Below are positions 6,001 to 15,000 of a stretch of 64,000 bases of DNA, one piece after another. The first letter of the stretch is position 1, and every line of letters starts with the position of its first letter. Made by a program: the position numbers. The stretch comes from an uncultured Bacilli bacterium (lineage in GTDB: Bacteria; Bacillota_I; Bacilli_A; RF39; UBA660), in assembly GCA_934120715.1 (NCBI GenBank), contig CAKOUW010000001.1:390599-454598 (forward strand), in the 5' to 3' direction.

Positions 6001-9000
6001 GCTTGTATCAATAGTACCAGTTTTATAGTCTATTATAGAAAAATAAGTATCACTTACCTCACTATAATACATAATTCTATCTATGGTTCCAGTAAAGATT
6101 ACAGATATATCCGAAGAGATATCAATATCTATTTTCTTTTCGTAATAATTATCGTTGTAGCCAGTTAATAATTCTTTTTTCTTTAACTCTTCTATTAAGT
6201 TTTTTAAATCTTTTTTTATTTTAACTAGTAATAGTCTTTCTTTTACAGATAGTTCTCTTGTTTCTAAATAGTTACTCCACTCTTTTTCAAAATCAAAATT
6301 AGTTCTATTATATAGTGATAATATTTGATGATAAAGGGATCCAATATAGGCACTGAAATTATCAGTGAAAGGATCTAGTTTTAAGACGTATTTAATATAA
6401 TATTTAAACTGGCATTCACTATAACTATTTAGGCTGGTATAAGATAGTTTTAGAGGAAAAGGAAGATTTTTTAGATAGAGATCATTATCTATACCAGTAA
6501 ACTCATTAGAGTATGTTTTATAGTTAATAGAGGTATTAGAATATAAAAGTTTTAAGGTATCATCTTTAATTCCATATAAATTATATAGATCTAGTTTTTT
6601 ACCTAGAGTAATTTTGTTATAAATATTTGAATAATTATAATTTATTGGATCAGGTTTTACTACTTCTAAATTATAATCAGTTATTAAGTTAGACTTATAA
6701 AATGAAGAGAATGATGATGATAATTTATATGATATAAAGACATTTTTAATAGATGATATAACTTTAGCAGTTAGTAGTTTAGATCTTTTATTTAGATAAG
6801 GGGTTTTATACATTGCGACTTCATCTTTGATATTATCAGTAATATATTCAGTATCTTGATAGACTTTAGGAAGTATATCTCTATTTAGGCCTAGTATAAA
6901 GACGTATTCATCAGAGTGGAATTCTTCATTGAAAAGATTCTTAATATTAATAGCGTTACTATATTTAGGAGGATTAATATAAGTATTTTTCAATTTATCT
7001 ATTAATATATCATGATATGATTTAGTGTCTTTATCTAACATGGCAAGAGATGAGATAATAGAAGTTATTTTATTATTTATAGATTGCTTTTTAGGATCTG
7101 TTTGATCAATTGTTTCATTAATTAGGAAGTCTTGAACTACTTTAGTTGGATATATTGAATTTTTCATATCAATATTTATAGGAATATTGTAGTACGAAAA
7201 GATCTTTTTTAAAGTATATAGATATTCACTTGTGATATTGGTAAGATATATTTTATTTATATCAATACCAGTATTAAGTAATTCTATAATCTTTAGACAA
7301 ACATTATTTACTTCTTCTTCAATAGTGGCATTTTCAACTACTTTAACATTTAAAATAACTTGTTCATTTTCATGATTATCTTTTATGCCAAGCATTTTTT
7401 CTTCATATTTATCTAGATCATAATATGATACAGTTATTACTTCTCTTTTTTCTAGATAGCTTTTAAAAATTGGATTAGTATGAAGAAGTTTTTTTGATGA
7501 TAATTCTTTTTTTAAGTTGCTTAAAAAGACTAATTTAACATCTTTATATTCTTTATCATCTTCTATTATATATAAATTATTTAGATAGACTTTAGCTACA
7601 TCTAGAGAGTAATTGTATTCCTCCATTAGGTAGCTTAGAGCTTCTTCATCATAAGAAAAATAATAGTTAGATTTAAATTCTTCTTTAGTCATAAATTTTA
7701 TATTATAAAAGTTATTATCACTACTTAATTCTTCTAATATCTTATTTTTTTCTTCAGTGGGACAAACTATTATTAAATTGTCATTTTTATATTTAGAGAT
7801 ATCCATTTTTATCACCTCTTTAATTATATCTGTTTATTTATATTTGGACAAGAGATGAGGAGGAATATTTGAAGATACATAATTAAAAGAAATAGCCAAT
7901 ACACAATTGCATTGACTATAAAATGATATTTGAAAGCTTTTTTACTTGTAATAATCCAGTACTACGGTTTCTGTACAATTTCCAGCATTGTCGCATATAA
8001 AAAACTGCCCTTTAATACATTTAACATAATCTTTTCTAACGCACCAATATGATAATCCTGCTTCAAATATACCGTTAGTGCCAGTGTTGTAAAAAGTATG
8101 CCATGCATCACCCATACCATTCATTTCATATGTTGTACCACATCCAGCTTTATTAAATGAATAATAGTAGCCGGGAGCACTGTAAGCGTATTTAAAGCCA
8201 GTTTTTGAATTAGATATGCCAGAAGTAGCATCGGTAAAACGATAGCCAAACCAATACTGAGGCGTTGAGTCTATTTCTTTATATTTTAACTCAAGTTTTT
8301 CGACAGCTTGAGGTGGTGTTGAATCTTTTTTTACTGTTTGGTCGCATTTACCTGTTGTGCCTGCTTCGTTTTTTACATATCCATACCATGTTGTGCCTTT
8401 TGTGTCATCATATTGCCGTTCAACTAAAACATCATCATAATGATCAGGTGTGTCTCCCCAATTAACAGAATCTAAGAAATAGTGTTGTACGGGGCTTGAC
8501 CCCTTCTGAACTGGATTCAACGTCACTTTAACACTACTGCCCTTATACCAGTCATTATCTCCTACTTTGCCATCCAAGCTTATCCAACATGTTGGTTTGC
8601 TTTTGTCTATTTTTACTTTTTGGCTGCATGTGCCTTTATTACCTGCATAATCATATACGTTTATGCTAACATTCCTTCCTGAGGTATTGTCTTTTATTTC
8701 GCTTAGGTATCTTTGATCATTATTGCAACCACTTCCTCCTTTATCCGAGCACATTCCTTCTATAGTTACATTGCTAGTATACCAGCCATTATCACCTTCG
8801 GTGCCCTTAATAATTTTCGTGCTACAGGTTGGTGGTGTTGAGTCTTTTTTTACTATTTGGTCGCATTTACCTGTTGTGCCTGCTTCGTTTTTTACATATC
8901 CATACCATGTTGTGCCTTCTGTGTCGTATCGTTGCCACCAGCTTTCCTCATTATTATAAAGATCTGAAACAAGTTCGTCCTCTCCATAATCATAAGTATC

Positions 9001-12000: not shown

Positions 12001-15000
12001 CTTCATAACGGTCCACATCATTCCAACTGTTATACGTTGCGGATGTATTTCGTGACATTCCATGTTCGGCAATTCCACTACCGGCATCACTTTTATTTAA
12101 TAATAATCTTATATGTTTATCAGTATACCAGCCATTTACCATTGTTGGATTGCCTTCAACACTAACACTACACTCTGGAGGTTTTTTATCTATTTTTATC
12201 GTATAATTAGGCGAATATTCAGAACAGTTTCCAGCTGCATCACAAGCTTTATATTGAATCATAGATGTTCCTTCTGACTCAATGTTTCTATAGTTTTGTT
12301 TCTGATTGGTTAAGTTTTTGGTTGTTCCTGTTGTCGTAAAATAATATTTTATGCCCTTTGAAACAGCATCAGTCGAATAAGGCATCGTGTATATTTTTAG
12401 ATTGGACCATGCACCACTTGAATAGTCCTTTAAGGACATGTTGCCATAAGTTGATGAAGTTGGTCTTGATTGTTCTTCATTACTATTCCATTTCTTTAAT
12501 TTTACAACCGGTACAGATGGTGGTGTTGAATCTTTGTTAAATTTAGCGGAATTGCACTCTGCTGTATTTCCAGCATTATCTTCTACATAGCCAAAGTATT
12601 GTATATTTTTGTCATCATCTTTTACTGTTGTAGATGCCACACTATTATACTTGGTTGAATCTGTAGTACGTTTTTGTGGCTTTAGTCCATATTTAGCAAC
12701 TCCACTAAGACTATCACTTTTAGTTAAAGTTACGCCTACTTCTTTATCAACGTACCAGCCATTTCTTGTGTTACCTGTAACTTGTACACTACACTCTGGT
12801 GCTGTTTTGTCAACCTTAATTTTAACATCATTATGAGTATCATTTTCAGTAGTAAGTCGTAGTATATGTTCCCCATCGTCTTCAATGTTATAGGTAACAC
12901 TTTCTCCTTTTTTTGACTCATTTGTTGATAAAAGTACACTATCTACTTTTAATTTTTTATTGCAGCTATCTTTAGCAGTTGCCTTTACGTAGACACTCAT
13001 ATTGGTCCAGTCATCAAAACTATAATTTTCATATTTTTTTGCATCAGTATCATTATATTTGCCATTATATTTTTTAGCGACAACTGTTATTTTAGGGGCT
13101 TTATAGTTTAACTGAACCGTTTTACTTAAAACTTTATATTGGTACTCATAATCTCCAGTATATCCATATCTTAATACAACTTTATAATTTTTGTTTTCCC
13201 TACCCTGATTAACGGTACGTAAATCGATATAGCCGTCAGTTATATCATTATATGCTAAGTTCCTTATTGCATCTTGATTATTGCTACTTGAGACTTCAAC
13301 TAAGGCATACTGAACATTTCTAGCGTCAGAATCCTCAATGTCAATTTTTATCTTTGCATTTTCACTACTAGTAAAGCAGGAGTTATCATCATCCAGGCTA
13401 GCAATTGGCTGGGCAACTTTGGTGCATACTGATGGAAGAGTATATTTGGTTTCATATATTTTTTCTTCATCCTTTTGGCATATAATTGTTGGGTAATATT
13501 TATACCGTCCAGATGGTTCTTTAATTACATAAGCTGCTATGTCGTCGCCCGTTCCACTACATTTAACTCCATCTAAATTGTATTCTTTAAGTAAATTGTG
13601 GCTTTTTAAATCGTCAAATGTTATACCAGCACACTGCGTGGTAAGGTCTTTTTTATTAAATTTATCTTCATCATATGAATCCATATATAATTTGCTGGAA
13701 GAAATTATAGAATTTTCATATGATGTATATTTTTTTGTTTCGTTGTTTCGTTTTAGGTTACTAATTGTTGGCAAAGCTATGGCAACAACAATTCCTAAAA
13801 TAGCGACCGCTACCACTAGTTCCACTAGTGTGAATCCACTATTTTTATTTATTGTTGGTTTCATTCCTCATCCTCCTATCATCTTACTCTTGATAAGAGT
13901 ATACAATACTTTTTTGTTTTTTTCAAGAAATCGTGTCACACCTCTAAATAAAAAAAAGCAGCTTATTCAGCTTCTTTTTCTACTACCTTATTTCCTTTAT
14001 AAGTTCCACATTTTGGACATACTCTATGTGGTTTAATAGTTTCACCACAACTTGGGCATTTTGTCATTCCAGGAACTTCCATAGCATTATGACTTCTTCT
14101 TTGTCTTTTTCTAGTCTTTGATACTTTACGGAAAGGTACTGCAAATAGTTGAATATCTAACTTCATCATTTTATCACTCCTTTTATAAATCTTTTAATAA
14201 ATCACTAAATGGATTATTAGAATTTTTTAGTTCCTCTTCACTAATCAATCTCCATCCATCCCCATGAAATTTACTGAGATCATTAACCTTAGTAAAATGT
14301 AAGGGGATCTCCAGTACAATATTTTCCCACAAAAACTGAAATATATCAAGTGTATTTTCATCTTTTTTCCAATTTTCTTCTATTACATCATCATATTCAA
14401 ATAATATTTTATAGTCAACTGGCTCAAGTGAGATGGAATCTTCAAGTATTAATGTTGCATTTACCGAAGCTTTTATATAAGTTTCTTCTTCTTCAATATC
14501 TTCACCAGGAACTATATATATTTCACCAGTTAAAGATAAATCTTTTATATCTTTTACGCTACTATCGGCAAAATAACTATCATCAATTTTATATGTATTA
14601 GTGATATCAATTTTTTCTTTATTTTTTCTATTAATTGGGGTTAAATCTATATCCATATAAACTCCTTTATCTTGACTATTGTTCAACAACTTTTATGATA
14701 CCGTGATAGTGAGCATCTTTAGCAAGCGTTGTTTGTAATGACGCTGTCACCCATATTCTAATAGTATAGTCTGTCTTTTCTAAGGCTTTCATTTCTTCTA
14801 TGTCTAGATTACTATCTATTAATTCTGACAAAGTTAATATCTTAGCTTTTTCATTATTCTTTTTTACTGATACTCTGATCATGTCTTTAGGAATAATATT
14901 ATCCAAGCAATTATCTTCAATTGTTTTTTCTACATCATCTTGTAATTTTAACTCATATTTTACACTCTCTGTTAGGTTATTCTTAATACTTAATGTATAG

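What the first reader, a model, noticed from the sequence alone, without database searches (positions are those of the whole stretch)
7942..13864. Tandem pair of giant ComGC-like prepilins carrying Cys-containing Ig-like repeat modules, with no pilus machinery nearby
Two adjacent genes of 827 and 1095 aa each begin with a textbook class III signal (KG|FTLVELVVAVAILG, Glu+5), which ordinarily belongs to ~100-150-aa competence/T4 pseudopilins. After a shared ~270-aa N-terminal region, each protein continues with a different set of ~100-170-aa modules that start [IK]DK[ST]PP.C and contain GDNGWY and YGYVK[DN][EN]AG motifs with paired Cys, and each ends in a Cys-rich tail. Each gene has its own promoter and RBS, and a terminator separates them. 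No PilB/PilC/PilD or comG genes are in the window; the flanks are rpmF and addAB. The arrangement looks like a pilus-displayed modular adhesin (or competence-pilus tip) system that I have not seen described in this form.
Basis: partly seen in the sequence, partly recalled or inferred. Interest (0 to 1): 0.75.

Follow-up and report, generated by a model that had tools for sequence, protein, structure and literature searches.

The report
Tandem giant modular type IV pilins
Two neighbouring genes of an uncultured gut bacterium encode very large proteins that start like pilus subunits and continue as a rod of Ig-like domains; they belong to a large, unstudied family of such proteins, probably adhesins carried on a type IV pilus, and their modules are swapped between strains.

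Summary
Genes A (7942-10425, 827 aa) and B (10577-13864, 1095 aa) both carry a class III (prepilin) signal that passes curated cut-offs. They share about 350 N-terminal residues (not 270). After that come 75-116-aa Cys-bracketed modules and Cys-rich tails. No pilus machinery lies in the window or within 6-10 kb beyond it.

Related genomes encode a PilC/GspF-type platform and an A24 prepilin peptidase near stand-alone pilins that have the same module. A conspecific strain keeps the tandem pair but has swapped cassettes in B, and another relative is an A/B mosaic.

Best reading: these are modular type IV minor pilins (the class described by Raynaud et al. 2021) that act as recombining adhesins. 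The label 'ComGC-like' is not supported. They are a new variant of a known kind, of moderate interest.

The parts
13898..13926 (-). Promoter-like site of gene B (TTGAAA-17-TATACT), followed by a GGAG ribosome-binding site
   Evidence: Consensus scan; homologous to the upstream region of A
10577..13864 (-). Gene B, a 1095-aa giant modular prepilin
   Evidence: ORF; PF07963 and TIGR02532 above cut-off; NF047446 53.4 bits against a cut-off of 40
13376..13864 (-). B residues 1-163: 10-aa leader, alpha1 and pilin head
   Evidence: 71% identical to the A module that was modelled; PDB profile hits to pilin alpha1
12812..13375 (-). B residues 164-351: two family-conserved beta-sandwich domains (D2, D3)
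   Evidence: Aligned to A 166-349, which AF2 predicts as two beta-sandwiches
10835..12811 (-). B residues 352-1010: seven modules, L-W-L-W-S-L-O, each starting D[KS]xxP. The S and L modules have invariant Cys7 and Cys83
   Evidence: Module dissection and alignment; weak OmpL47-type hits for four modules. The S-L part (11081-11572) is replaced by other cassettes in a conspecific strain
10580..10834 (-). B residues 1011-1095: Cys-rich tail (10 Cys) with a GYMR[IV]C...WCSC motif
   Evidence: Homologous to the tails of P0003, P0010 and the 1582-aa L024 prepilin; no known family
10513..10534 (-). Terminator-like hairpin plus T-run between B and A
10457..10485 (-). Promoter-like site of gene A (TTGAAA-17-TATACT), followed by a GGAG ribosome-binding site
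7942..10425 (-). Gene A, an 827-aa giant modular prepilin
   Evidence: ORF; PF07963 and TIGR02532 above cut-off
9931..10425 (-). A residues 1-165: 10-aa leader, alpha1 (helix 13-68) and pilin head (beta-sheet 77-140, 4-5 Cys)
9379..9930 (-). A residues 166-349: two beta-sandwich domains (D2, D3)
   Evidence: AF2 model; Foldseek matches to tandem Ig/MG-domain proteins; no Pfam family
8326..9378 (-). A residues 350-700: modules S-L-S-L (an S+L pair duplicated, 83-92% DNA identity)
7945..8325 (-). A residues 701-827: C-terminal tail ending ICDNAGNC
   Evidence: Conserved in P0001, P0004, P0006, P0008 and P0045; no known family
7892..7919 (-). Terminator-like hairpin after A

Best explanation
A and B are paralogous modular type IV pilins, that is, minor pilins with grafted modules.

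Proposed mechanism (inferred):
1. A prepilin peptidase encoded elsewhere in the genome removes the 10-residue leader after Gly-1.
2. The mature N-terminal alpha1 helix (Phe1, Glu5, Gly14, Pro22) first anchors the protein in the membrane. It then lets the protein be built into a type IV filament by a PilB/PilC-type machinery that is also encoded elsewhere.
3. Because the rest of the protein is bulky, each copy most likely sits at or near the filament tip, at low abundance.
4. There it holds out a rod of about 8-10 beta-sandwich domains ending in a Cys-rich tail, which acts as the adhesive end.
5. The two genes are transcribed separately. Their module sets are reshuffled by recombination between the paralogues and with other strains, which varies binding specificity or antigenicity.

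Shown: the signal and its conserved residues; the pilin-like prediction of the N-terminus; family size and distribution; machinery genes in related genomes; cassette exchange within the species.

Inferred: processing, incorporation into a filament, tip position, adhesion, and the Ig-like fold and disulfides of the modules.
For: - Class III signal above curated cut-offs in both proteins.
- In 151 family representatives: Phe1 150, Thr2 151, Glu5 151, Gly14 147, Pro22 151; Gly-1 in 146 and Ala-1 in 5. Glu5 and the Pro22 region are tied to filament assembly, not merely to cleavage (PMC10628169).
- A profile of the module matches solved type IV pilins over alpha1: S. sanguinis PilE1 at 3e-9 and geopilin at 1e-9.
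- Stand-alone 156-181-aa pilins with the same module lie about 8 kb from T2SSF and Peptidase_A24 genes in related contigs. A 161-aa one sits directly upstream of a 1736-aa giant prepilin, the arrangement expected for a major pilin plus a modular minor pilin.
- Precedent: S. sanguinis PilB and PilC are two Glu5-bearing modular pilins placed together in a modelled tip complex of the pilus (PMC9934059).
- Cassette exchange: flanking proteins are 99-100% identical between the window and L088, while B drops to 0-40% identity over about 250 alignment columns and has different module content. P0004 is an exact B/A mosaic.
Against: - No assembly ATPase, platform or peptidase lies in the 64-kb window or in the 6-10 kb beyond each end. 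Their presence in this genome is untested.
- Beyond alpha1 there is no sequence similarity to any solved pilin.
- It is not known whether proteins of 90-120 kDa, mostly rigid beta-sandwich domains, can be extruded through a Gram-positive wall on a filament.
- None of the giant-prepilin loci found in Bacilli MAGs has machinery within 10 kb.
Confidence: 0.6

Rival explanations
1. Pilin-anchored surface proteins that are never polymerised. The class III signal serves only for membrane insertion, with or without cleavage. The protein stays tethered by alpha1N, and the rod of domains spans the cell wall to expose the tail. This would resemble the archaeal sugar-binding proteins that carry class III signals.
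For: - The genes are orphans with their own promoters and terminators.
- No machinery lies within 10 kb of any giant prepilin in Bacilli MAGs.
- A rod of about 8-10 domains is about the right length to cross a Gram-positive wall (inference).
- In archaea, class III signals on sugar-binding proteins that are not conventional pilus subunits are documented (PMC3047682, listed).
Against: - Glu5, Gly14 and Pro22 are near-invariant. These residues matter for filament assembly, so a mere anchor would not need them.
- The same pilin module exists as stand-alone 150-180-aa pilins next to machinery genes and next to a giant paralogue.
Confidence: 0.25
2. Minor pilins of the competence (Com) pilus that act in DNA capture at its tip.
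For: - comEA and comEC are in the window (61273-61974 and 59223-61304).
- There are weak hits to the ComGE and ComGC models.
Against: - Those hits cover only the signal/alpha1N and fall far below the equivalog cut-offs (23 against 75 bits; 29 against 49 bits).
- The relatives' platform scores 302 bits as GspF and 254 as PilC, against 137 as ComGB.
- The cargo looks like adhesin-type beta-sandwich repeats and varies between strains, which is not expected of a DNA receptor.
Confidence: 0.07
3. Ordinary Sec-secreted S-layer or wall proteins whose hydrophobic N-terminus only resembles a prepilin signal by chance.
For: Foldseek matches of the three-domain N-terminal model include the Bacillus anthracis Sap S-layer protein and other tandem Ig-like surface proteins.
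Against: - The G|FTLxE...G14...P22 pattern is conserved in 147-151 of 151 representatives.
- The signal passes curated HMM cut-offs.
- There is no signal peptidase I-type cleavage region and no S-layer homology or LPXTG anchoring motif.
Confidence: 0.03

Closest known systems
Modular type IV pilins PilB and PilC of Streptococcus sanguinis (Raynaud et al. 2021, PMC8179133; PMC9934059)
   Same: - Canonical class III signal with Glu5.
- A small pilin module followed by non-pilin modules.
- Two different modular pilins in one organism.
- A proposed adhesive role at the filament tip.
   Different: - PilB and PilC are bimodular (about 50 kDa; vWA or lectin module) and are encoded inside the pil locus with the machinery.
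- A and B are 827 and 1095 aa with about 8-10 domains.
- A and B share a family-specific 350-aa 'pilin + 2 beta-sandwich' base.
- They carry Pfam-invisible cargo, lie far from any machinery, and exchange cassettes between paralogues and strains.
Multi-repeat modular pilins in the InterPro census (for example the 860-aa Candidatus Falkowbacteria protein with 12 IPR013211 motifs; PMC8179133)
   Same: A prepilin signal followed by many repeated modules, and very large size.
   Different: - Different phylum and different repeat family.
- The census needed a recognised extra domain. In this family Pfam usually sees only N_methyl, so most members would have been missed.
Large tip-located minor pilins CofB/TcpB (type IVb pili) and GspK (T2SS)
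   Same: A pilin module plus extra beta-rich or other domains, and tip location.
   Different: - Those proteins are encoded in the pilus or secretion operon and are 300-520 aa.
- GspK lacks Glu5, whereas A and B keep it.
- No sequence similarity was detected beyond alpha1.
OmpL47-type beta-barrel domain proteins (NCBIfam NF047446) and bacterial Ig-like adhesins (SiiE, SraP, Big domains)
   Same: Four B modules match NF047446 weakly. D2 and D3 are predicted to be tandem beta-sandwiches like those of such adhesins.
   Different: - Those proteins use Sec or T1SS signals with lipoprotein, LPXTG or outer-membrane anchoring, not a prepilin N-terminus.
- The bracketing Cys7/Cys83 pair of the S and L modules is a feature of this family.
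Neisseria pilE/pilS antigenic variation
   Same: Sequence variation of a pilin by recombination with homologous donor cassettes.
   Different: - Here whole domain-sized modules are exchanged between two expressed tandem genes and between strains.
- No silent cassettes, G4 element or programmed mechanism was found.
- The evidence comes from comparing strains, not from observing switching.

Membership tests
Type IV pilins (prepilin-type N-terminal cleavage/methylation proteins) | Class III signal: short basic leader ending in Gly (or Ala), then Phe1 and about 20 hydrophobic residues with Glu5 | tested here: met
   PF07963 34.3 and 33.3 bits (cut-off 21.2); TIGR02532 29.3 and 26.7 bits (cut-off 16.3). 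The sequences read NKG|FTLVE and NSG|FTLVE.
Type IV pilins (prepilin-type N-terminal cleavage/methylation proteins) | Assembly-related alpha1N residues conserved (Glu5, Gly14, Pro22) | tested here: met
   Present in both A and B. Across 151 family representatives: Glu5 151, Gly14 147, Pro22 151.
Type IV pilins (prepilin-type N-terminal cleavage/methylation proteins) | Lollipop fold: alpha1 of about 53 residues packed on an antiparallel beta-sheet | tested here: inconclusive
Type IV pilins (prepilin-type N-terminal cleavage/methylation proteins) | Processed by an A24 prepilin peptidase and polymerised by a PilB/PilC-type machinery in the same organism | not testable with these tools
   No such genes lie in the window or within 6-10 kb beyond it. 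Relatives carry T2SSF and Peptidase_A24 near same-family pilins. The rest of this genome could not be read.
Modular pilins (sensu Raynaud et al. 2021) | An N-terminal pilin module followed by one or more extra modules not specific to type IV filament biology | tested here: met
   Pilin module at residues 1-165, followed by two predicted beta-sandwich domains and 5-8 further modules. B passes NF047446 (OmpL47-type domain) at 53.4 bits against a cut-off of 40.
Modular pilins (sensu Raynaud et al. 2021) | The extra module has a direct role in a filament-mediated function such as adhesion | not testable with these tools
   Only indirect evidence: adhesin-like domain types and strain-variable cassettes.
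Competence pilins ComGC / ComGE | Equivalog-level match to NF040999 (ComGC) or NF041013 (ComGE), small size (about 85-140 aa), and location in a comG operon | tested here: not met
   ComGC 23.0 and 18.4 bits (cut-off 75); ComGE 29.0 and 28.3 bits (cut-off 49), matching only residues 6-74. The proteins are 827 and 1095 aa, and the window has no comG operon.
OmpL47-type beta-barrel domain (NF047446) | Score at or above the curated cut-off of 40 bits | tested here: inconclusive
   B as a whole scores 53.4 bits over 4 stretches. Single modules score 19.6-29.9 bits, and A, the S modules and two of B's three L modules do not match.
Sortase-anchored (LPXTG) or S-layer surface proteins | C-terminal LPXTG sorting signal, or SLH/S-layer domains with a Sec signal | tested here: not met
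   Neither protein has a C-terminal LPXTG motif. The tails end ...VVLDYYK and ...WCSCNNEF. There are no SLH or S-layer families. Genuine LPXTG proteins occur elsewhere in the window.

The most novel reading that the evidence does not exclude
The tandem giant prepilins are the expressed loci of a recombination-driven variation system in commensal gut Bacilli. Domain-sized cassettes are exchanged between paralogues and strains to change the adhesive or antigenic rod shown at the pilus tip. This would be a modular, domain-level counterpart of Neisseria pilE/pilS variation. On this reading the family (hundreds of members, up to 1,737 aa, invisible to domain databases) would be a major, overlooked class of host-interaction proteins in uncultured gut Bacilli.
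Probability: 0.2. Interest if true: 0.65.

Novelty: new variant of a known kind. Interest (0 to 1): 0.42.

Why it matters
Type IV pili are being re-examined in single-membrane bacteria, and only two modular pilins (S. sanguinis PilB and PilC) have been studied experimentally. This locus points to a large, uncharacterised family of much bigger modular pilins in uncultured gut Bacilli. Domain databases see little in these proteins beyond the N-terminal motif, so domain-based censuses have probably missed most of them.

If they are displayed on pili, they are likely major adhesins of these commensals. The cassette exchange seen within one species would then be a simple route to variation in binding or antigenicity. 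The family also raises a mechanical question: how is a 100-kDa rod attached to a pilin passed through a Gram-positive wall?

Tried and rejected
- Word-indexed homology search with A residues 1-352 returned only 2 hits, which wrongly suggested a near-orphan. The exhaustive HMM search showed hundreds of relatives, so the index is lossy for this family.
- Foldseek/PDB on the three-domain N-terminal model returned only tandem Ig-like proteins and could not test the pilin fold. I re-modelled residues 1-172 alone.
- A profile of the S and L modules against PDB sequences gave no hit. Pfam on single modules, the tails and D2-D3 gave nothing.
- A profile search with B's Cys-rich tail gave no hits.
- An exact look-up of B found no identical protein on record. 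A near-identical strain was reached through the P0003 cluster instead.
- Extending both window ends through conspecific contigs showed no machinery.
- TSP1-like CSxxCGxG repeats that I saw by eye in the L006 and L024 proteins were not confirmed by Pfam.
- Rejected: the ComGC/ComGE assignment, an S-layer or Sec protein, and an LPXTG protein.
- The higher G+C of A and B is mostly an amino-acid composition effect (GC2 0.38-0.42). GC3 is only modestly raised, so horizontal acquisition is not shown.
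Full report
**Observation**

The region holds two minus-strand ORFs, A (7942-10425, 827 aa) and B (10577-13864, 1095 aa). Both begin with a 10-residue basic leader ending in Gly, followed by FTLVELVVAVAILGIV. Both pass the curated cut-offs of Pfam PF07963 and TIGR02532.

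Two corrections apply:
- The shared N-terminal part runs to about residue 350, with 61% identity, not 270.
- The repeat units are 75-116 aa. The roughly 175-aa period in A is an S+L module pair that was duplicated, at 83-92% DNA identity.

Each gene has a homologous promoter-like site (TTGAAA-17-TATACT) and a GGAG ribosome-binding site upstream, and a hairpin plus T-run downstream.

The flanks are YceD/rpmF and addB/addA. The 64-kb window is a low-G+C (about 28%) chromosome segment with all genes on one strand. It contains no PilB/PilT/PilC/PilD/ComG-type gene. I checked this by reading the translations, by a motif scan that found such genes in at least 15 control loci, and by Pfam on the ORFs I could not assign. 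A and B are the only prepilin-type ORFs in the window. comEA and comEC, and two LPXTG proteins, lie elsewhere in the window.

**Anatomy**

A has the layout: pilin module (1-165), D2 (166-262), D3 (263-349), then S-L-S-L modules (350-700), then a 127-aa tail.

B has the layout: pilin module (1-163), D2, D3 (to 351), then L-W-L-W-S-L-O modules (352-1010), then an 85-aa tail with 10 Cys.

The S and L modules are one domain family. Asp1, Pro5, Cys7, Trp20, Ala-Gly and Cys83 are invariant in 12 of 12 copies. A disulfide between the first and last strands is a reasonable inference but is not shown.

B as a whole passes NCBIfam NF047446 (OmpL47-type beta-barrel domain) at 53.4 bits against a cut-off of 40. 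Single modules score only 20-30 bits, and A's modules do not match. Pfam and PDB profile searches are silent for the modules, the tails and D2-D3.

AF2 on A residues 1-350 (pLDDT 78) predicts a long helix, a beta-sheet and two beta-sandwich domains. The whole model matches only tandem Ig/MG-domain surface proteins such as TEP1, alpha2-macroglobulin, SiiE, SraP and Sap.

**Is the N-terminus a pilin?**

A 27-sequence profile of residues 1-172 hits solved type IV pilins, but only over alpha1: geopilin at 1e-9, S. sanguinis PilE1 at 3e-9, then PilA, MshA, PulG and PpdD.

A second AF2 model of residues 1-172, built on a 63-sequence alignment, is confident (pLDDT 84, above 90 for residues 10-150). 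It shows helix 13-68 and a five- to six-stranded sheet.

The stronger argument is conservation. In 151 family representatives, Phe1 is kept in 150, Thr2 in 151, Glu5 in 151, Gly14 in 147 and Pro22 in 151. Position -1 is Gly in 146 and Ala in 5. Glu5 and the segment around Pro22 are linked to filament assembly (PMC10628169). A mere membrane anchor would not need to conserve them.

**Family and distribution**

The word-indexed search found only two relatives. The exhaustive HMMER search with the N-terminal profile found 297 representatives (clusters at 50% identity) at E<=1e-30 and 734 at E<=1e-10. Among the best 151 representatives (the 150 listed hits plus P0002), the median length is 747 aa, 23 are at least 1000 aa, and the maximum is 1737 aa.

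In the species-representative genome collection, the relatives that extend beyond alpha1 are almost all in uncultured 'Bacilli', 'Firmicutes' or 'Tenericutes' MAGs. Where the record names a host, it is a human or animal gut. They often occur in tandem (L005: 776 + 786 aa; L020; L024: 1582 aa).

Cargo differs between members. It includes the same AGN-type modules, Listeria-Bacteroides repeats (the L086 1736-aa protein and P0032) and other Cys-rich tails. In most of these proteins Pfam sees only the N_methyl motif. A census that requires a recognised extra domain would therefore miss them, a limitation the authors of that census acknowledged (PMC8179133).

**Link to a machinery**

The same pilin module also occurs as stand-alone pilins of 145-181 aa. 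In related contigs (L083-L085) such a pilin lies about 8 kb from a T2SSF gene and an adjacent Peptidase_A24 gene with the GGGDIK motif. The T2SSF protein scores 302 bits as GspF and 254 as PilC, against 137 as ComGB.

In L086/L087 a 161-aa pilin sits directly upstream of a 1736-aa giant prepilin. That neighbourhood (DnaI, M23 peptidase, Lactamase_B, ThrRS) matches window 53734-58108, and ThrRS is 73.6% identical.

So the lineage has a prepilin peptidase and a Pil-type platform, with pilus genes scattered around the chromosome. That makes the absence of nearby machinery here unremarkable for this group. Whether this particular genome has them could not be tested. Conspecific contigs extend the view by only 6-10 kb at each end, and those stretches show SMC, Def and FtsW on one side and L21 and Prp on the other.

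**Variation within the species**

L088 (ENA ERZ15610569, a 161-kb contig) is the same species. Eleven flanking proteins are 98.7-100% identical, and the order L32, [1081 aa], [830 aa], AddB, AddA is the same.

A is 98.4% identical between the two strains. B is near-identical except for about 250 alignment columns where identity falls to 0-40%. The window's S-L cassettes are replaced there by an A-type S module (84% DNA identity to A) plus a diverged S module (81%). The DNA on either side is 98-99% identical.

P0004 (822 aa) is 100% identical to B over residues 1-100. It is then 92-100% identical to A up to residue 350, after which its modules diverge to 50-74%. L003 and P0001 are alleles with three modules and one module respectively in the same genomic context.

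Recombination at module boundaries, both between the paralogues and between strains, is therefore well supported. Whether it is programmed is unknown.

**Interpretation**

The best-supported reading is that A and B are modular type IV minor pilins (confidence 0.6). On this reading a peptidase encoded elsewhere processes them, and they are built into a type IV filament, probably at its tip. There each shows a rod of beta-sandwich domains with a Cys-rich end that binds a ligand.

The closest precedent is S. sanguinis PilB and PilC. These are two Glu5-bearing modular pilins that sit together in a modelled tip complex (PMC8179133; PMC9934059).

The main rival (0.25) is that the prepilin N-terminus serves only as a membrane anchor for a wall-spanning surface protein. 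A Com-pilus role (0.07) and a coincidental Sec or S-layer protein (0.03) are poorly supported.

**Novelty**

The kind of protein, a modular pilin, is known, and multi-repeat examples up to 860 aa have been reported. What differs here is:
- a family-specific 350-aa base (pilin plus two beta-sandwich domains);
- the size (up to 1,737 aa);
- cargo that is invisible to Pfam;
- orphan tandem loci;
- domain-level cassette exchange within a species.

My literature searches found no description of this family. I rate it a new variant of a known kind, with interest about 0.4.

Noticed in passing
window 27821-34897 (element about 28442-33664): A penicillin-binding protein gene appears split in two: an N-terminal part at 33665-34897 and a C-terminal part at 27821-28441. 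Between them lies a 5.2-kb insert carrying a 570-aa large serine recombinase (28452-30164), a kinase-like ORF, Fic/DOC-like fragments and a RhuM-like ORF. It resembles the recombinase-excised intervening elements known from sporulation genes.
   Followed up: partly
window 42023-42532 and 44863-46452: Two LPXTG (LPSTGG) surface proteins of 169 and 529 aa share signal and C-terminal regions (53% identity over 89 aa). The organism therefore also has sortase-anchored surface or pilus proteins, a second adhesin system.
   Followed up: partly
window 7942-13864 compared with the flanks: A and B have higher G+C (0.34) than their neighbours (0.24-0.29). Most of the difference is amino-acid composition (GC2 0.38-0.42), but GC3 is also raised (0.22-0.25 against 0.15-0.18).
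   Followed up: partly
L085 2536-5035 (also L083 and L084): In related Bacilli the T2SSF platform gene has an N-terminal extension of about 170 aa with Gln-rich DPxMQQVAI repeats. It sits next to the A24 peptidase, between queA/tgt and a DnaB_2-family (PF07261) gene, with no assembly ATPase adjacent. The pilus genes are scattered in this lineage.
   Followed up: partly
L006 6648-9077; L024 10001-14746; L005 8040-13708: Several giant prepilins of other gut-Bacilli MAGs end in repeated Cys-rich units of the form CS/T-x-x-CG-x-G...R, which by eye recall thrombospondin type 1 repeats. Pfam did not confirm any family.
   Followed up: partly
window 14676-15230, 46567-47064, 47073-47606, 47599-48432: Four small proteins with an N-terminal transmembrane helix match no Pfam family and show no detectable similarity to each other. 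One lies three genes upstream of B; three lie downstream of the PBP gene at 48434-50584.
   Followed up: partly
window 19188-20903, 24416-25906, 442-2232: Three large ORFs (571, 496 and 596 aa) have no Pfam match. The 571-aa and 596-aa ORFs are conserved, the 571-aa one at 99.6% identity, in the conspecific contigs L088 and L091.
   Followed up: no
one search compared: The word-indexed protein search missed near-identical relatives (P0003, P0004) that the exhaustive HMM search found. Low hit counts from the indexed search should not be read as rarity for repeat-rich, low-complexity-like proteins.
   Followed up: yes
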